A DNA stretch of 64,000 nucleotides from Candidatus Gastranaerophilales bacterium HUM_1 (GTDB taxonomy: Bacteria; Cyanobacteriota; Vampirovibrionia; Gastranaerophilales; Gastranaerophilaceae): NCBI GenBank assembly GCA_002103105.1, contig DAAY01000004.1, positions 27,746-91,745 on the forward strand. Reading direction: 5' to 3'. The notes below the pieces were generated by a model, which worked only from the letters and a program-made list of their open reading frames with translations, was not told the DNA's origin and did not search any database. Below, piece after piece: positions 9,777-14,620 of the stretch (the first letter of the stretch is position 1; each line of letters opens with the position of its first letter). The position numbers and the translations under genes are program-made.

Positions 9777-9809
9777 CCCTCTCCCTTAATCCCTCTCCAT
9801 CGGAGAGGG
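9777..9809 (+). repeat. solo REP-like element CCCTCTCCC-TTAAT-CCCTCTCC-ATC-GGAGAGGG
   Basis: 8-bp GC-rich stem with a 3-nt loop, preceded by a direct copy of the 5' arm. Near-identical elements occur at 48046-48077 and 56215-56248. Confidence 0.7.
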
Positions 9810-9824
9810 AAATTTCTTTTAAAC

Positions 9825-9856
9825 AATGCCCCTCGTCAAAATTGACGAGGGGCATT
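9825..9856. terminator. strong hairpin AATGCCCCTCGTCAA-aat-TGACGAGGGGCATT
   Basis: 14-bp stem followed on the plus strand by GTAAGTTTTTT. It lies downstream of the minus-strand serpin-like gene, and the minus-strand tail is not T-rich. Confidence 0.5.
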
Positions 9857-9928
9857 GTAAGTTTTTTATTCTCTAAACGTTTCAGATAGAAAGGCTGAAA
9901 CACGTTCAGCATGACTATTTACAACAGA

Positions 9929-11029
9929 TTAATTTCTACCTGTTTTGTTCAAAGTTTCAACATCAGCTACCTTCATAGCGTAATATGGAGTTTTTTGACC
10001 TTTTTCTGTTAAGAACAATACAAAATTATCAGTAAAGTAGAATTGACGACCATTATCTGGACGAAGCGAAGTCATTCTTACAGCAACAGCCGCTTCACTT
10101 TTTAATTTAACACCTTCATTATTCATTTTGAAATCTACTGTTTCAATTGAACGGTCAATTCTGAAATTTGTTCTTCTAATATCTCGACCTTCTACTTCTG
10201 GGAAGTTTGTTTCTTGATACAAGCTAATTTCTGGAATGATTAACTCATCATCTTTAACAAATTTTCTATTTCCATGATATTTTGAAGTTTTTTCCTTCAT
10301 TTCTGAATAATATTTCAAGAATGTTTTATCATCATTTGTTCTATACAAAATAACTTCATCCTTATCTTTTGTGAATAATTTAACAGCAAAATCTTCAGAA
10401 TTATTATAGAACAACACTCTTACATTCTTATATAACTTTTTATTACTTGATTCGTTTATGCCAAAATATTGAGCATTATAATTGTAATTTTTTGCAAATG
10501 GAGCTTCTGCAAGTTTGTCAAACGCTTGTAAAAATTTAAAATCTTTTTTCAACATTGCATAAACAAATAATTTTTGAGAATCTTTTGCCCAATCGAATGA
10601 ATCTAAAATATCACTGGTTTCATTAAACTTTTCTTTTATGCCTTTTTCAATTTCCTTTTTCAATTCTGGGGAAACTGTTCCATATTTTGTATAATAAGCA
10701 TTTTCACTAACATTTGATTTTTTGAAAGATTGTTTATTTAATTCCTTAACTACTTTTGGAGTATCTCCAACAAAACGAATAGGTCCATATATAATATTAT
10801 CCATCAATTCGTTCCAAACAAGTTGAAAAGTTCCCACCCAAATTCTATTTTGAGCCTTACTTTCAACAGACATTGTTGGAAGAATTTCTATTGGTTTTAC
10901 AGTTTCTACGGATTCTGTTTGCTCAACTTTAACCTCTGATTGCTCGAGTTTGTTTTTTTTGTCAGATGCAACAACAGGCAAACTTGCAAGAAGAACCGCT
11001 AAAACACCTAAAGCTAATAACTTTTTCAT
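9929..11029 (-). CDS. secreted serpin-like protein
   Basis: Signal peptide MKKLLALGVLAVLLASLPVVAS. The C-terminal IETVDFKMNNEGVKLKSEAAVAVRMTSLRP...RQFYFTDNFVLFLTEKGQKTPYYAMKVADV matches the serpin hinge (EG.eAaAat), reactive loop and F.adrPFlF pattern. The N-terminal half is not diagnostic. Confidence 0.5.
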   Translation of the reverse strand: MKKLLALGVLAVLLASLPVVASDKKNKLEQSEVKVEQTESVETVKPIEILPTMSVESKAQNRIWVGTFQLVWNELMDNIIYGPIRFVGDTPKVVKELNKQSFKKSNVSENAYYTKYGTVSPELKKEIEKGIKEKFNETSDILDSFDWAKDSQKLFVYAMLKKDFKFLQAFDKLAEAPFAKNYNYNAQYFGINESSNKKLYKNVRVLFYNNSEDFAVKLFTKDKDEVILYRTNDDKTFLKYYSEMKEKTSKYHGNRKFVKDDELIIPEISLYQETNFPEVEGRDIRRTNFRIDRSIETVDFKMNNEGVKLKSEAAVAVRMTSLRPDNGRQFYFTDNFVLFLTEKGQKTPYYAMKVADVETLNKTGRN

Positions 11030-11409
11030 TTTTTTCTCCTTCTATCAATATTTAACATTTTAAAAAAACTTTTTAAAAACCCACCTGCCGTATTCTTGTG
11101 AAGAATAGGAGCAGATTCATAGAAATTTTTATAGTTTTCTATAATATTTTGAGGCAAAGATTCCCCTTTTTCAAGGGTATAAGACAAAAATTCAATATAA
11201 TCATCCTGCTCTTCTTTATACAAAGCATCACGATTTCTTAAATCTTCATCAGCTTCATAGTGAATTAAAGCATGATACGCCGCAACAAGACTCTCATCCT
11301 CTGTATCTTTTGGATAAGCAAGCATAGCTTCCCTAACACAAAGCTGACCAACCCGCACAAGCCTCAATAGCCGTGCTACTTTTTGTCTATCTTCAATATT
11401 TTCAGACAT
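11026..11409 (-). CDS. hypothetical cytoplasmic protein, 127 aa
   Basis: Tightly packed between the BlaI-like gene (4-nt gap) and the serpin-like gene (4-nt overlap). No motif recognised. Confidence 0.5.
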   Translation of the reverse strand: MSENIEDRQKVARLLRLVRVGQLCVREAMLAYPKDTEDESLVAAYHALIHYEADEDLRNRDALYKEEQDDYIEFLSYTLEKGESLPQNIIENYKNFYESAPILHKNTAGGFLKSFFKMLNIDRRRKK

Positions 11410-11413
11410 AACG

Positions 11414-11758
11414 TTATTTTACAAGAAGTTCTGACATTTCTCGTTCAACAAACTTTACCATGTCAGCATAATCACCATTAAAGAAATTATCTGTAAATTC
11501 CTTTAACATATCTAAAGCCATCTCTCTTTTATCCATAGTAGCTTTATAGAAAAACTTCTTTCCAACCTTATAACGAACTAAAATACTCTTAGATACCAAT
11601 CTATCCATAACGGTTTTGATTGTTGTATAAGCTCTTTCTACACCATTTGAAGAAAGTTCATCTACAACATCTTGAATAGAAATATCTACATCTTCGTCTG
11701 TGGCAGTTAAATTCCAAAACGTATTTAAAATTTCAATTTCTAAAGAGCCGCAAACCAT
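11414..11758 (-). CDS. BlaI/MecI/CopY-family winged-helix transcriptional repressor
   Basis: LEIEILNTFW...ISIQDVVDEL....ERAYTTIKTVMDRLVSKSILVRYKVGKKFFYKATMDKRE follows the penicillinase-repressor family pattern. GGAGGAAA RBS upstream. Confidence 0.75.
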   Translation of the reverse strand: MVCGSLEIEILNTFWNLTATDEDVDISIQDVVDELSSNGVERAYTTIKTVMDRLVSKSILVRYKVGKKFFYKATMDKREMALDMLKEFTDNFFNGDYADMVKFVEREMSELLVK

Positions 11759-11782
11759 GATTTCCTCCTGTAACTGTCAACT

Positions 11783-11851
11783 ATTACTATAATTGTAATA
11801 TAAAAACTTTAGATTTCAATAGCTGTTACATAATATTTACAAATCTGTAAA
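11783..11851 (-). promoter_or_regulatory. two TACA/TGTA-type dyads upstream of the BlaI-like gene (candidate operators)
   Basis: ATTAC-N7-GTAAT at 11783-11799 and the perfect dyad TTTACA-AATC-TGTAAA at 11836-11851. BlaI/MecI operators are TACA/TGTA dyads. Confidence 0.35.
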
Positions 11852-11854
11852 ATA

Positions 11855-13015
11855 CTAAAAATCCATATTCATAAAATCTTCTGATTTTTTGTAATCTTTT
11901 TTGCTAGAGCGAACTTTTGCGTTCTTTTTCTTGGTTTTTTCTGGAATTGAACGATAAGCATTATCCAACGAAACCTTTGCAATTACTTCTTTTGTTCTTC
12001 TATCAAAGAACGTCAACCAAAATTTTCTATTGATATTATCGACAGCAAATGACACATTTGCAACAATTTTATCCCCAGGTCTGATTTGACGAAACATAAG
12101 TTTTGTATCCCCAAAAATAGATGGACTAAATTTTGCGTTGTAATCATTCATCAAAACCATGTCAAAACCTGAAAGAGTCTTGTCAGACATATTTGAAATC
12201 AACACAGATAAAGTAATCGTATTAACCTCTCCGAAAGGATCTTTCTCATGTTTAATATTATTTATATTAACTGTCAAACCATCATAATGAACTTCTTCTT
12301 GTTTCAAAGCTTCTTCTTTATAAACTGGCAAGTCAACTTGAGTATTTATTTTTACCTTAATTTCATCCCCAGGAGCAATCATTACATGATTTCCTTTTCT
12401 AATTAAAGCAACACCAAGACCAGCAACTCCTCCAATTGCAGCACCTCCAGCCAAAGTATAACCTTGAGAAGCAATCGCAGCTTCTAAACCTAACCAATTT
12501 AGAGCCATTAAACCGCCGACTGCTCCACCAGCAACAGTATAACCAACATCTTGAGCAACTATTTTTGCTCCCGCAGTAATTGGGTGAAGCTTGGTTGTCA
12601 TTTGACCTTCAATAGGAATCTCTCTGCCATCTGGAGTAACTAAATAATCAAAAGACAAAGACATTGATGCTTCACGCCCCAAACGTGTTGGTTCGGTTGT
12701 TCCAGTCAATTTGCCATGAGCAACAGTTCCCTTTGGGATAATAATCCCTTTGTCGCCATAAACATCAGATGTTACCTCTGCAAAAAATTCATCTCCTTCC
12801 ACAGAAATAGAAGAATCTAATACTTGAGATACCGTCATATTTATTACATCTTTGCGATTTAGTGATTCAACTTTTCCAGTAAAAATGTCATCTTGCGTTT
12901 GCTTATATTCACTTGACTCTGATACAGAACCTTTCAACGGCTCTGCAACTGACAGCAAAGTAAAATTCATAAAGCAAATCATTATTGATAATATAAAACT
13001 AGCAATCTTCTTCAT
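11855..13015 (-). CDS. exported membrane protein with a TrbI/VirB10-like beta region and a glycine-zipper segment
   Basis: Start moved to MKKIASFILSIMICF (ATG 13015). GDEFFAEVTSDVYGDKGIIIPKGTVAHGKLTG...LGREASMSLSFDYLVTPDGREIPIEG weakly resembles TrbI/VirB10 C-terminal domains. GGAVGGLMALNWLGLEAAIASQGYTLAGGAAIGGVAGLGVAL is a Gly-zipper. Confidence 0.5.
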   Translation of the reverse strand: MKKIASFILSIMICFMNFTLLSVAEPLKGSVSESSEYKQTQDDIFTGKVESLNRKDVINMTVSQVLDSSISVEGDEFFAEVTSDVYGDKGIIIPKGTVAHGKLTGTTEPTRLGREASMSLSFDYLVTPDGREIPIEGQMTTKLHPITAGAKIVAQDVGYTVAGGAVGGLMALNWLGLEAAIASQGYTLAGGAAIGGVAGLGVALIRKGNHVMIAPGDEIKVKINTQVDLPVYKEEALKQEEVHYDGLTVNINNIKHEKDPFGEVNTITLSVLISNMSDKTLSGFDMVLMNDYNAKFSPSIFGDTKLMFRQIRPGDKIVANVSFAVDNINRKFWLTFFDRRTKEVIAKVSLDNAYRSIPEKTKKKNAKVRSSKKDYKKSEDFMNMDF

Positions 13016-13054
13016 GACAAAATTATACAACACAATTAAAAGATAGAGCAAATG

Positions 13055-14620
13055 TTAATCTTTTTGTTCTTCAACTTCTTGTGCCATCTCTTCAATAAAA
13101 TTGTTTACTTTTGCAGGTTCAAAACATGAACAAGAATTCCAAATCAATGTTGGTCTAGGCTCAGTCAACAAAGGACTTGGAAATTCATTATGGCATTTAC
13201 CTTTCAACATATTAGTTGAACCATCTGGACAAGACGTAAACATTGAGCAACAGCTACAAATTTTCAAGATTAAACCATAATCTTCCATTTTTGATTTCAA
13301 TTGTTGCAAAGCATCAATCATTCTCAAATGAGATGAAGTAGTATATTTTTTATTTTTATAAATAAATCTAATTTTTGACAAACCACTTTCTGTTGAAATA
13401 AATTCTAACTTACAAGCTCTATCACCATGTTTTGTCTGTACCATAACATCAATAGAAAGTTTATCGACCTCTCTATCTGTATTCGCACCCAGTTTCTTTA
13501 GTAACACTCTTACTGGAGGGAAATTCTTAACAATGTGACAGATTGAGTAAATTGGATACAACATTAATAGCATTATTTCTTTGAAATTTAATTTTGCATT
13601 TACTAAACTCAAAGCAAAAATTGCTATCAAAACAAACGCAGTAAAAATCACCACGCTACATTTCACAATAAATTGACAATGATATGAATACGCTATTAAT
13701 AATGCATAAATGGCAATCAATGTCCAACAATTAGGATTTAACAATGAACAAATATGTTCAATATAATTAAAATTAACGTTTTTTAAATTTTTAAAATTAT
13801 TTTTCAATAAATTAAAGCGTTTTGTTAATCTTGGCTTTTTAAATGAACAATCTTGCCCAAGAATGAAAGATTGAATATTAGGATTATAAACGCATTTGTG
13901 TCCTGTTTGTGATAACAACAAACTAAATTCTAATTCTGAATTAATATCTTTAAAATTAATATCTTCAGCATCTTCCAATGCAGATTTTTTTATTATAAAT
14001 AAGCCAGAATCAACATTTGTAGCCAACCCTAACAAAGAACGAGATTGTTTGAAGAAATTAGCTTGATATTTTTTATAAACAGCTTTAATCCTATCTACTA
14101 TATCTAAATTTTCTCTATTGATATTCAATTCGCCAGTAACAGCATCATATTTTTTTAATGCCGCATTAGCCAATGTTAAAAATTCTGGAGCAATCCTTCT
14201 AGTACTATCAATAAACACATAGGCATCAATAGTTTCATCTTTTTTAAGTTCTTCTAAAAGCATTGATACGGCTTTGTTTTTGCCCAAAGTACCAACATCT
14301 TGAATATTTACAACATGTACGAAATTGTCATTTTCAAAAATCTTTTCAGAACCGTCATTACAATCATCCAAAACAGCATAGACCTTGAAATCAGCAAGAG
14401 GATAATCTTGCATCTTCAATTCTTCAACAAGTTCTTCCAAGCACTCTTTATGATTATGGCTATATATTATTACAGCAAAACTCGCTTTTGAATCATCATA
14501 TCTTGAATATTTTCTTTCGATAAAAAATGGTCTGTCTTTCAAGTTGCGAATAGACAAAATCAAAAGATACAATGAATAAACTAATACGTATAAATAAAGT
14601 AGATATAATATAAATTCCAT
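13055..14620 (-). CDS. family 2 glycosyltransferase, polytopic membrane type, with Cys-rich C-terminal domain
   Basis: N-terminal TM helix, FAVIIYSHNH...VLDDCNDGS...VFIDSTRR GT-A signature, several TM helices. C-terminal about 150 aa has CSCCSMFTSCPDGS...CHNE...CSCF. Confidence 0.7.
   Translation of the reverse strand: MEFILYLLYLYVLVYSLYLLILSIRNLKDRPFFIERKYSRYDDSKASFAVIIYSHNHKECLEELVEELKMQDYPLADFKVYAVLDDCNDGSEKIFENDNFVHVVNIQDVGTLGKNKAVSMLLEELKKDETIDAYVFIDSTRRIAPEFLTLANAALKKYDAVTGELNINRENLDIVDRIKAVYKKYQANFFKQSRSLLGLATNVDSGLFIIKKSALEDAEDINFKDINSELEFSLLLSQTGHKCVYNPNIQSFILGQDCSFKKPRLTKRFNLLKNNFKNLKNVNFNYIEHICSLLNPNCWTLIAIYALLIAYSYHCQFIVKCSVVIFTAFVLIAIFALSLVNAKLNFKEIMLLMLYPIYSICHIVKNFPPVRVLLKKLGANTDREVDKLSIDVMVQTKHGDRACKLEFISTESGLSKIRFIYKNKKYTTSSHLRMIDALQQLKSKMEDYGLILKICSCCSMFTSCPDGSTNMLKGKCHNEFPSPLLTEPRPTLIWNSCSCFEPAKVNNFIEEMAQEVEEQKD

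What the first reader, a model, noticed from the sequence alone, without database searches (positions are those of the whole stretch)
9929..11851. BlaI-type repressor operon without a BlaR1 sensor, ending in a secreted serpin-like protein
Three tightly coupled minus-strand genes (4-nt gap, then 4-nt overlap) encode a BlaI/MecI/CopY-family repressor, an unrecognisable 127-aa cytoplasmic protein and a signal-peptide-bearing serpin-like protein. BlaI repressors are classically inactivated by proteolysis triggered by a membrane M56 sensor-protease (BlaR1/MecR1). No such gene is here, and the operon's output appears to be a protease inhibitor. Two TACA/TGTA-type dyads lie in the upstream region: ATTAC-N7-GTAAT at 11783-11799 and the perfect TTTACA-AATC-TGTAAA at 11836-11851. 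A proteolysis-gated repressor controlling a serpin would be an unusual protease-sensing feedback circuit. That interpretation is inference.
Basis: partly seen in the sequence, partly recalled or inferred. Interest (0 to 1): 0.6.

Follow-up and report, generated by a model that had tools for sequence, protein, structure and literature searches.

The report
BlaI-type operon with divergent serpin
A gut Melainabacteria genome has a self-repressed three-gene operon: a BlaI-type repressor that works without the usual BlaR1 sensor-protease, an unknown helical protein that always accompanies it, and a periplasmic, very divergent serpin-fold protein; nothing shows that the operon senses proteases.

Summary
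Three coupled minus-strand genes (4-nt gap, 4-nt ATGA overlap) encode:
- a BlaI/MecI/CopY-family repressor (Pfam Penicillinase_R, E 1e-19);
- a 127-aa protein ("p127") with no family and no PDB fold match;
- a 366-aa signal-peptide protein that no serpin HMM detects, but whose AlphaFold model matches only serpins, with weak profile support.

No M56 (BlaR1) gene exists in this 99.5%-complete genome. Only 2 of 81 genomes of the order have one.

The dyad at 11783-11799 is a 17-bp palindrome over the -10 box. It is present in all 61 distinct upstream regions and is unique in the genome, so the operon is probably self-repressed. The second dyad is not conserved as a dyad.

The conserved unit is BlaI plus p127: p127 is single-copy in 80/81 genomes of the order and adjacent to BlaI in 12/13 loci from other families. 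The serpin-like gene is core only in this family (47/47 genomes). It adjoins p127 in 38/47, and where it stands alone it has no operator. The BlaI cleavage site is not conserved. The protease-sensing loop therefore stays speculative.

One lead for it: close homologues of the serpin-like domain are fused through a transmembrane helix to ECF sigma factors in other gut bacteria.

Verdict: a new variant of a known kind, of moderate interest.

The parts
11836..11851 (-). Perfect dyad TTTACA-GATT-TGTAAA, 3 nt after the stop of the upstream 398-aa gene. Only the TTGTAAA half (11842-11836) is conserved in relatives; it resembles an operator half-site (TTGTAAT).
   Evidence: Sequence. TTGTAA lies 44-46 nt upstream of the palindrome in 46/61 upstream regions, and the left half is not conserved.
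11814..11819 (-). -35 hexamer TTGAAA of the operon promoter.
   Evidence: Best promoter-like site in the region: TTGAAA-16-TACAAT, 10/12 matches. A TTG(T/A)AA box sits at this position in relatives.
11783..11799 (-). Operator: 17-bp palindrome ATTACAAT-T-ATAGTAAT that contains the -10 hexamer TACAAT (11797-11792).
   Evidence: TTAC-N7-GTA[AG] is present in 61/61 distinct upstream regions, 15-33 nt before the ATG. It is unique in the own genome at 0-1 mismatch. It stays upstream of BlaI in five of the six loci checked where the serpin-like gene is elsewhere.
11414..11758 (-). BlaI/MecI/CopY-family winged-helix repressor, 114 aa, pI 4.7. It has a short C-terminus, no CopY Cys motif, and no Asn at the BlaI N101-F102 site.
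   Evidence: Pfam PF03965 E 1e-19. NCBIfam CopY/MecI/BlaI models all score far below their cut-offs. PDB 1sd4 BlaI E 1.3e-5, with alignment. It is the only true Penicillinase_R gene in the genome. SD AGGAGG lies at 11769-11764.
11026..11409 (-). p127: a 127-aa protein of unknown family. It has an acidic helical-bundle core (residues 1-100, pI 4.6) with the invariant motif AAYHALIHYEADEDxR...EEQDDYIEFL. A C-terminal amphipathic helix and basic tail follow (GFLKSFFKMLN-IDRRRKK, pI 11.8). It is the obligate neighbour of the repressor.
   Evidence: No Pfam or NCBIfam family. AF2 pLDDT 82, all-helical. No PDB fold match at E < 2. Mean column identity 75%. Single copy in 80/81 genomes of the order and absent outside the order in the phylum sample. 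Adjacent to BlaI in 12/13 loci of other families. Charge and hydrophobic moment.
9929..11029 (-). 366-aa exported, very divergent serpin-superfamily protein: signal peptide residues 1-21, a disordered linker to about residue 46, and the fold at 47-366.
   Evidence: AF2 pLDDT 72. The top 50 listed Foldseek PDB hits are all serpins (106 matches at E <= 0.001), with TM only 0.27-0.48. 11/60 homologues hit Pfam Serpin weakly, best E 3.3e-6. In a profile search of the PDB, 43 of the 44 listed hits are serpins, at E about 0.06 and weaker. hhalign against alpha1-antitrypsin: E 1.8e-4, probability 49%. Single copy in 47/47 genomes of the family.
10040..10114 (-). Hinge and reactive-centre-loop equivalent, residues 306-330: G-VKLK-SEAAVAVRMTSLRPDNGRQF. 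NEG...KSEAA and GR.F are conserved and residues 315-326 are variable but hydrophobic. The inferred P1 is near residue 324.
   Evidence: Family alignment and per-column entropy. hhalign register against alpha1-antitrypsin, with a 4-residue insertion after G306. AF2 models 306-319 as a confident strand next to s5A, as in cleaved or latent serpins.
9823..9858 (.). 16-bp GC-rich hairpin about 70 nt downstream of the serpin-like stop codon; the likely end of the transcription unit. A weak hairpin at 9894-9910 lies in between.
   Evidence: Terminator-like scan. The strong hairpin is scored on the + strand and the weaker one on the - strand.

Best explanation
This is a self-repressed operon of a gut Gastranaerophilales (Melainabacteria) bacterium.

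Mechanism proposed:
1. A sigma-70-type promoter (TTGAAA-16-TACAAT) has its -10 box inside a 17-bp palindrome.
2. The palindrome is the binding site of the first gene product, a short BlaI/MecI/CopY-family winged-helix repressor (inferred from family membership and operator conservation).
3. The repressor has no BlaR1/M56 protease.
4. Its constant partner is the second gene product, p127. This is an acidic helical-bundle protein with an invariant His/Asp/Glu patch and a membrane-seeking C-terminal amphipathic helix.
5. I infer that p127 takes the signal-relay role. It would act as an anti-repressor or sensor that binds the repressor, in the way MecR2 acts on MecI, perhaps depending on a metal or on the state of the membrane.

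Role of the third gene:
- It is translationally coupled by an ATGA overlap and encodes a Sec-exported protein. In a diderm this is most likely periplasmic.
- The protein has a reduced, very divergent serpin fold.
- It was joined to the BlaI-p127 module within one family (Gastranaerophilaceae).
- It most likely acts as a serine-protease inhibitor or decoy against hydrophobic-P1 (elastase- or chymotrypsin-like) gut proteases.

What is shown: gene order, family assignments, absence of M56, operator conservation, the phyletic pattern and the serpin fold.
What is inferred: repressor-operator binding, the role of p127, inhibitory activity and the inducing signal.
For: Anatomy and coupling:
- Gene order, spacing and sequence.
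- BlaI family.
- Promoter with its -10 inside the palindrome.
- Palindrome present in 61/61 distinct upstream regions and unique in the genome.

No BlaR1:
- No M56 in the genome. Only 2/81 genomes of the order score over the cut-off.

p127 as the partner:
- Single copy in 80/81 genomes of the order (65/65 high-quality).
- Next to BlaI in 12/13 loci from other families, in 63/80 serpin-like loci, and in six of the nine loci checked from genomes where the serpin-like gene stands alone.
- 75% mean column identity, with invariant HALIHYEADED.
- Acidic core plus amphipathic basic tail. No known fold.

Serpin fold:
-.
- Conserved SEAA hinge and a variable hydrophobic loop.
- Core gene of the family (47/47), adjacent to p127 in 38/47.

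Precedents:
- Gut bifidobacterial serpins that inhibit pancreatic and neutrophil elastase and are thought to protect the cell (PMC8012564).
- The MecR2 anti-repressor encoded beside mecI (PMC3406092).
Against: - There is no direct evidence that the repressor binds the palindrome or that p127 touches the repressor.
- p127 occurs without a detectable BlaI neighbour in a few genomes (L094-L096, L144), so it may have a function of its own.
- The serpin-like protein fails Pfam Serpin.
- Foldseek TM-scores are only 0.27-0.48, and 92 residues of the model have pLDDT < 50.
- The hinge departs from the inhibitory motif ExGTEAAAA (PMC8233489). It has Asn at P17, a 4-residue insertion, and bulky residues at P10-P9.
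- AF2 places the loop as a confident inserted strand, which fits a non-metastable, non-inhibitory protein.
- In 9/47 genomes of the family the serpin-like gene is unlinked, and it then has no operator. Control by this repressor is therefore not essential to its function.
Confidence: 0.45

Rival explanations
1. The BlaI-type repressor is inactivated by proteolysis when the cell meets proteases, and the operon answers by making a protease inhibitor. This would be a protease-sensing negative-feedback loop that works without BlaR1. A variant: the serpin-like protein is itself the sensor, and cleavage of its loop is the signal.
For: - A repressor of a proteolysis-gated family, with no M56 partner.
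- The output has a serpin fold.
- In B. breve a serpin operon is induced by proteases through a neighbouring two-component system, so protease-inducible serpin expression exists (PMC8012564).
- MecR2-type anti-repressors promote proteolysis of MecI by cytoplasmic proteases (PMC3406092), so p127 could still gate proteolysis.
- Close homologues of the serpin-like domain (37% identity over 360 aa, E 1e-75) form the extracytoplasmic part of ECF-sigma/TM fusion proteins. That architecture is typical of sensors released by regulated proteolysis.
Against: - The Asn of the BlaI N101-F102 site is not conserved and the C-terminus is short.
- Nothing in the operon spans the membrane. The serpin-like protein has a cleavable-looking signal peptide, and p127 has only an amphipathic helix.
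- BlaI-p127 is conserved order-wide without any serpin-like gene nearby.
- Stand-alone serpin-like genes lack the operator.
Confidence: 0.12
2. BlaI-p127 is a housekeeping regulatory pair of Gastranaerophilales that responds to something unrelated to proteases, such as a metal, redox state or envelope state. The serpin-like gene merely landed downstream. The serpin-like protein is a non-inhibitory, permanently loop-inserted serpin-fold protein with a binding or structural role in the periplasm.
For: - p127 and BlaI are order-wide core genes. Their downstream neighbours vary: TadE-like plus CxxCxxCC proteins, gyrB, PadR-like.
- The invariant His/Asp/Glu patch in p127 suggests metal binding.
- Relatives in the BlaI family include copper-responsive CopY and cyanobacterial PetR/PetP (10.1101/2020.07.31.226407).
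- AF2 models residues 306-319 as a confident strand in the sheet, and the best matches are cleaved serpins.
- The hinge carries an insertion and bulky residues.
- No serpin HMM hit.
Against: - The ATGA overlap and adjacency in 38/47 genomes of the family (8 of 12 genera) argue for selected co-expression.
- The SEAA hinge, the loop length and the hydrophobic Pro-containing loop resemble alpha1-antitrypsin's inhibitory loop.
- AF2 cannot tell metastable states from relaxed ones.
- The repressor has no CopY Cys motif: it has a single Cys, at residue 3.
Confidence: 0.3
3. p127 is not a regulator. It is the main regulated product of the repressor, an order-specific core protein with a membrane-associated function of its own. 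The repressor senses its signal directly.
For: - p127 occurs without a detectable BlaI neighbour in some genomes (L094-L096, L144).
- It is more conserved than the repressor's other neighbours.
- It has a membrane-seeking tail.
Against: - A 4-nt gap with no separate Shine-Dalgarno sequence suggests stoichiometric co-production.
- The near-universal adjacency mirrors repressor-partner pairs such as BlaI-BlaR1 and MecI-MecR2.
Confidence: 0.13

Closest known systems
BlaI/BlaR1 and MecI/MecR1/MecR2 of Staphylococcus aureus (and BlaI of Bacillus licheniformis)
   Same: - A winged-helix repressor of the same Pfam family (PF03965).
- Self-repression through a palindromic operator with TTAC../..GTAA arms overlapping the promoter.
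- A partner gene immediately downstream in the same operon.
- MecR2 is a precedent for a cytoplasmic anti-repressor encoded beside the repressor (PMC3406092).
   Different: - No M56 sensor-protease in the genome or, in practice, in the order.
- The Asn of the N101-F102 cleavage site is absent and the C-terminus is shorter.
- The partner is an unrelated 127-aa helical protein with no known fold, whereas MecR2 is a ROK-like protein.
- The cargo is a serpin-fold protein, not a beta-lactamase or PBP2a.
CopY/CopZ of Enterococcus hirae and PetR/PetP of Synechocystis (BlaI-family, metal-responsive)
   Same: - The same repressor family. The best NCBIfam hit is CopY_TcrY, far below its cut-off (36.8 vs 121.95 bits).
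- PetR/PetP shows that the family is used in the cyanobacterial phylum (10.1101/2020.07.31.226407).
- A small partner protein could deliver the signal, as CopZ delivers copper.
   Different: - No C-terminal CxCx4CxC motif (one Cys only).
- No PetP-like protease.
- p127 is unrelated to CopZ.
- No metal-homeostasis genes in the operon.
Bacterial serpins of gut commensals (Bifidobacterium longum/breve serpin; miropin of Tannerella forsythia)
   Same: - An exported serpin-fold protein of a gut bacterium.
- A hydrophobic loop compatible with elastase- or chymotrypsin-like targets.
- Expression tied to a dedicated local regulator. [quoted passage not shown]
- Miropin is among the Foldseek matches (5ncu, 5nct).
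   Different: - Those proteins score as canonical serpins with the ExGTEAAAA hinge (PMC8233489).
- This family gets no Pfam Serpin hit, is about 50 residues shorter, and has fewer helices in the model.
- It has a 4-residue hinge insertion and an extra C-terminal helix.
- Its regulator is of BlaI type, not a two-component or LacI-type system.
ECF sigma factors with fused transmembrane and extracytoplasmic domains (one-component ECF systems)
   Same: - Homologues of the serpin-like domain (37% identity) sit outside the membrane in sigma70_r2/r4-TM-domain fusions.
- This links the domain family to transcription control a second, independent time.
   Different: - In the window the domain is a separate soluble exported protein.
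- The regulator is a BlaI-type repressor rather than a sigma factor.

Membership tests
BlaI/MecI/CopY repressors (Pfam Penicillinase_R, PF03965) | N-terminal winged-helix DNA-binding domain scoring above the curated threshold | tested here: met
   71.4 bits against a 22.6 cut-off, E 1e-19, residues 4-106. PDB BlaI 1sd4 E 1.3e-5; MecI E 1.4e-3.
BlaI/MecI/CopY repressors (Pfam Penicillinase_R, PF03965) | Palindromic operator (TACA/TGTA-type arms) overlapping its own promoter | tested here: met
   ATTACAAT-T-ATAGTAAT covers the -10 TACAAT. It is conserved in 61/61 distinct upstream regions and unique in the genome. Binding itself was not tested.
BlaI/BlaR1-type proteolytic switch | Cognate membrane M56 sensor-protease (BlaR1/MecR1) | tested here: not met
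   No PF05569 match in the 99.5%-complete genome. Only 2/81 genomes of the order score over the cut-off, both on small contigs.
BlaI/BlaR1-type proteolytic switch | Scissile Asn-Phe bond (N101-F102 of S. aureus BlaI) in the C-terminal dimerisation domain | tested here: not met
   The alignment with 1sd4 has a one-residue gap opposite L100. N101 pairs with K102 of the query and F102 with F103. The query ends 11 residues after that Phe, whereas BlaI continues for 24.
CopY-type copper repressors | C-terminal CxCx4CxC metal-binding motif; NCBIfam CopY_TcrY above its cut-off | tested here: not met
   One Cys only, at residue 3. TIGR02698 scores 36.8 bits against a 121.95 cut-off.
Serpin superfamily (Pfam PF00079) | Sequence match to the Serpin HMM above the gathering score | tested here: not met
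   No hit at E <= 0.1 for the protein and no hit at E <= 1 in the genome. 11/60 homologues hit weakly, best E 3.3e-6; the one hit listed in detail scores 22 bits against a 27-bit cut-off.
Serpin superfamily (Pfam PF00079) | Serpin fold | tested here: met
   The AF2 model (pLDDT 72) gives 106 Foldseek PDB matches at E <= 0.001. The top 50 listed are all serpins at probability 1.0. Caveats: TM-scores are 0.27-0.48 and 92 residues have low confidence.
Inhibitory serpins | Hinge motif P17-P9 ExGTEAAAA and a canonical loop length (PMC8233489) | tested here: inconclusive
   The sequence reads N-E-G-[VKLK]-S-E-A-A-V-A. G(P15) and SEAA (P14-P11) are kept. P17 is Asn, there is a 4-residue insertion, and P10-P9 are bulky in most members. 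hhalign against alpha1-antitrypsin gives E 1.8e-4, probability 49%.
Inhibitory serpins | Metastable native state; covalent SDS-stable complex with the target protease | not testable with these tools
   AF2 shows the loop as an inserted strand, which cannot separate native from relaxed states. This needs biochemistry.

The most novel reading that the evidence does not exclude
Two undescribed things may meet in this operon.

1. A BlaR1-independent way to control a BlaI-family repressor. An order-specific, membrane-peripheral, possibly metal-binding helical-bundle protein (p127) would act as sensor or anti-repressor.

2. A large, unannotated branch of the serpin superfamily (about 2,400 clusters at 50% identity) whose spring-loaded fold is used as an extracytoplasmic protease-triggered switch. 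This is suggested by the recurrent ECF-sigma/TM/serpin-like fusions. On that reading, cleavage of the loop by a gut protease would be the signal that turns on transcription. The Gastranaerophilaceae operon would be a split version of such a protease sensor.
Probability: 0.1. Interest if true: 0.8.

Novelty: new variant of a known kind. Interest (0 to 1): 0.5.

Why it matters
- BlaI-family repressors are textbook examples of signalling by regulated proteolysis through BlaR1. An entire bacterial order keeps one such repressor as a core gene, with a different and unknown partner and no M56 protease. That points to another way of switching this family.
- The third gene reveals a large serpin-like family that standard annotation misses: it has no Pfam hit and carries 'hypothetical protein' labels. 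The family is core to a common human and animal gut lineage.
- Elsewhere the same domain is fused to ECF sigma factors.
- If the protein inhibits host digestive or neutrophil proteases, it bears on how Melainabacteria persist in the gut.
- If the domain is a protease-triggered sensor, that would be a new use of the serpin mechanism.

Tried and rejected
- Sequence searches of the 366-aa protein found no named family: Pfam, NCBIfam, PDB phmmer, and a 36-sequence profile against the PDB. Only a deeper 60-sequence profile reached serpins, weakly.
- A Foldseek search of the p127 model against the PDB gave nothing below E = 2, so no fold assignment is offered.
- The second Penicillinase_R hit in the genome (C6) is the C-terminal winged helix of a Fic-domain protein, not a second BlaI.
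- I looked for a wider regulon with the 17-mer operator. Only the operon's own site matches at 0-1 mismatch, and looser matches equal the control.
- I tested whether stand-alone serpin-like genes keep the operator. Neither of the two matches in the 16 loci (L050, L063) lies upstream of the serpin-like gene.
- I considered the upstream 398-aa protein as a hidden sensor and rejected it on my own reading of the sequence. It looks like an exported beta-rich protein with a glycine-zipper segment and has no protease motif.
- I considered CopY-type metal sensing by the repressor itself and rejected it, because the Cys motif is absent.
- Literature searches found nothing on this operon or on ECF-sigma/serpin fusions.
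- No complex prediction of BlaI with p127 was possible.
Full report
**1. What is in the sequence**

The minus strand carries three coupled ORFs:
- 11758..11414, 114 aa;
- 11409..11026, 127 aa;
- 11029..9929, 366 aa.

The first two are separated by 4 nt, with no Shine-Dalgarno sequence of their own. The last two overlap by ATGA.

The first product is a BlaI/MecI/CopY-family winged-helix protein:
- Pfam Penicillinase_R scores 71.4 bits, E 1e-19.
- PDB BlaI 1sd4 gives E 1.3e-5.
- The NCBIfam CopY, MecI and BlaI models all score far below their cut-offs.

The second product, here called p127, has no Pfam or NCBIfam family.

The third begins with a Sec-type signal peptide (…LPVVA|SD). It has no Pfam, NCBIfam or PDB sequence match, even with a 36-sequence profile.

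**2. Is the third protein a serpin?**

An AlphaFold2 model built on 36 homologues has mean pLDDT 72. Residues 1-44 are disordered and 183-207 are weak.

- Foldseek against the PDB returns 106 matches at E <= 0.001. The top 50 listed are all serpins at probability 1.0.
- They include bacterial miropin and thermopin and the small viral serpin CrmA.
- TM-scores are only 0.27-0.48.
- The best matches are cleaved serpins, because the model places residues 306-319 as a confident strand next to strand 5A.

An exhaustive profile search finds 2,386 cluster representatives at E <= 0.001. Of 60 diverse members, 11 hit Pfam Serpin weakly, with best E 3.3e-6.

The 60-sequence profile hits the PDB weakly (E about 0.06 and weaker). 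43 of the 44 listed hits are serpins.

hhalign of that profile against human alpha1-antitrypsin gives E 1.8e-4 and probability 49% over 97 columns. The alignment pairs:
- NEG with EKG (P15 Gly = G306);
- E312-A313-A314 with P13-P11, after a 4-residue insertion;
- residue 324 with P1;
- FVLFLTEKGQKTPYYAMKV with FVFLMIEQNTKSPLFMGKV.

Within the close family, NEGV.LKSEAA and GR.F are almost invariant. Residues 315-326 vary but stay hydrophobic: AAIMMKCMAMPI-ERGR in most members and AAVAVRMTSLRP-DNGR here.

I conclude that this is a remote, reduced member of the serpin superfamily. Whether it inhibits proteases is open. The hinge departs from the inhibitory motif ExGTEAAAA (PMC8233489), and AF2 cannot tell a metastable state from a relaxed one.

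**3. No BlaR1**

- The window's genome is 1.88 Mb in 8 contigs and 99.5% complete. It has no Peptidase_M56 match.
- It has only one true Penicillinase_R gene. The second hit is the winged helix of a Fic protein.
- Across 81 genomes of the same order, M56 scores over the cut-off in only 2, both on small contigs.
- In the alignment with S. aureus BlaI, F102 pairs with F103 of the query, but L100 has no counterpart (a one-residue gap). N101 therefore falls opposite K102 or opposite the gap.
- The protein ends 11 residues after that Phe, whereas BlaI continues for 24.
- The CopY Cys motif is absent: the protein has a single Cys, at residue 3.

**4. Promoter and operator**

The best promoter-like site in the region is TTGAAA-16-TACAAT (11819-11792).

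I compared 61 distinct upstream regions from related genomes:
- Every one carries TTAC-N7-GTA[AG], 15-33 nt before the start codon, amid otherwise variable sequence.
- The exact 17-mer is unique in the genome. Looser matches are no more frequent than a control.

This is strong comparative evidence for a dedicated, self-repressing operator. Binding itself is inferred.

The second dyad (11851-11836) is perfect only here. In relatives only TTGTAA(A) survives, 44-46 nt upstream of the palindrome in 46/61 regions. It resembles a half-site (TTGTAAT), as does the -35 box in 25/61.

**5. What is conserved with what**

The homologues come from gut Melainabacteria/Gastranaerophilales MAGs.

Among the 80 best serpin-like loci (one genome per species):
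- 63 carry the full trio, and one further locus, cut at the contig end, has p127 next to the serpin-like gene.
- 16 have the serpin-like gene with neither partner within about 7 kb.
- In nine genomes of this last kind, p127 sits elsewhere.
- In six of those nine it has the 398-aa gene and BlaI upstream, and the operator was found upstream of BlaI in five of the six.
- The stand-alone serpin-like genes have no operator upstream.

In whole genomes:
- p127 is single-copy in 80/81 genomes of the order (65/65 high-quality).
- p127 is absent from the other cyanobacterial lineages sampled.
- In 12 of 13 loci from nine other families of the order, BlaI and p127 are adjacent, with no serpin-like gene nearby.
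- Downstream genes there vary: TadE-like plus CxxCxxCC proteins, or gyrB.
- The serpin-like gene is single-copy in 47/47 genomes of the window's family but in only 6/34 genomes of other families.
- Comparing coordinates, it adjoins p127 in 38/47 genomes (8 of 12 genera).

So the ancient unit is operator-BlaI-p127. The serpin-like gene is a family-level core gene that is linked to that unit in most, but not all, genera.

**6. p127**

- The alignment is unusually tight, at 75% mean column identity.
- The block AAYHALIHYEADEDxR…EEQDDYIEFL is invariant. The His/acid motif is also kept in the other families of the order.
- AF2 (pLDDT 82) gives a helical bundle for residues 5-99, then a flexible linker and a separate C-terminal helix.
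- No PDB structure matches it.
- The core is acidic (pI 4.6). The tail GFLKSFFKMLN-IDRRRKK is amphipathic and basic (hydrophobic moment 0.61, pI 11.8), as in peripheral membrane anchors.
- From this I infer a sensor or anti-repressor, analogous in logic to MecR2 (PMC3406092), possibly dependent on a metal or on the membrane. This is inference only.

**7. A lead on the serpin-like domain**

Four of ten long homologues scanned individually carry an N-terminal ECF sigma factor (Sigma70_r2 plus r4) and one transmembrane helix ahead of the serpin-like domain. In the 60-member set, five carry Sigma70_r4 domains.

- One of them (P0264) is 37% identical to the window protein over 360 residues, E 1e-75.
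- The window protein's signal peptide aligns with that protein's membrane anchor.
- The fusion is found on many gut-metagenome contigs.
- I found no paper on it.
- Such fusions usually mark extracytoplasmic sensor domains. This keeps alive, at low probability, the idea that the domain is a protease-triggered switch.

**8. Comparison with known systems and verdict**

- Like BlaI/MecI, this is a self-repressing winged-helix repressor with a downstream partner. Unlike them, it has no M56 protease and lacks the Asn of the cleavage site.
- Like the bifidobacterial serpins (PMC8012564), the last gene encodes an exported serpin-fold protein of a gut commensal under local control.
[quoted passage not shown] This protein, however, lies outside the canonical family.
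- PetR/PetP (10.1101/2020.07.31.226407) shows BlaI-type regulation in cyanobacteria, but with a protease.

I treated it as a lead and re-derived each point here.

Its protease-sensing interpretation is only partly supported. The system is best described as a new variant of a known kind.

Noticed in passing
L159:5001-6635 (also L160, L161); proteins P0264, P0335, P0363, P0376: These are single-polypeptide fusions of an ECF sigma factor (Sigma70_r2 plus r4), one transmembrane helix and a serpin-like extracytoplasmic domain. The domain is 37% identical to the window's 366-aa protein. The fusion appears monocistronic in gut-metagenome contigs. I found no literature on it.
   Followed up: partly
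window 11855-14620 (minus strand): A GT2 glycosyltransferase (521 aa) and an exported 398-aa protein with a glycine-zipper segment lie directly upstream. The 398-aa gene accompanies BlaI-p127 in 49/80 loci, and also in genomes where the serpin-like gene is elsewhere (L088-L093). It may therefore be tied more closely to the repressor pair than the serpin-like gene is.
   Followed up: partly
L143, L147, L150, L152 (other families of the order), downstream of p127: In other Gastranaerophilales families, BlaI-p127 is followed by a TadE-like protein (N-terminal ...QSLIEF... pilin-like motif) and a CxxCxxCC Cys-rich protein of about 195-200 aa. A XerD-like recombinase precedes it, usually with a small lipoprotein gene in between. 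This is a different cargo for the same module.
   Followed up: no
L002:595-1692 (own genome, contig C6): A 365-aa Fic-domain protein has a C-terminal winged helix that scores weakly as Penicillinase_R (22-23 bits).
   Followed up: no
L109 (G082:C58:521-1315) and L110 (G037:C42:164-1096): The only two strong M56 (BlaR1-like) matches among 81 genomes of the order lie near the ends of small contigs. They could be contamination or mobile DNA.
   Followed up: no
window 9790-9858: Two GC-rich hairpins (9790-9810 and 9823-9858) lie downstream of the serpin-like gene in an otherwise AT-rich spacer. The stronger one is scored as a plus-strand terminator although no plus-strand gene ends there.
   Followed up: no
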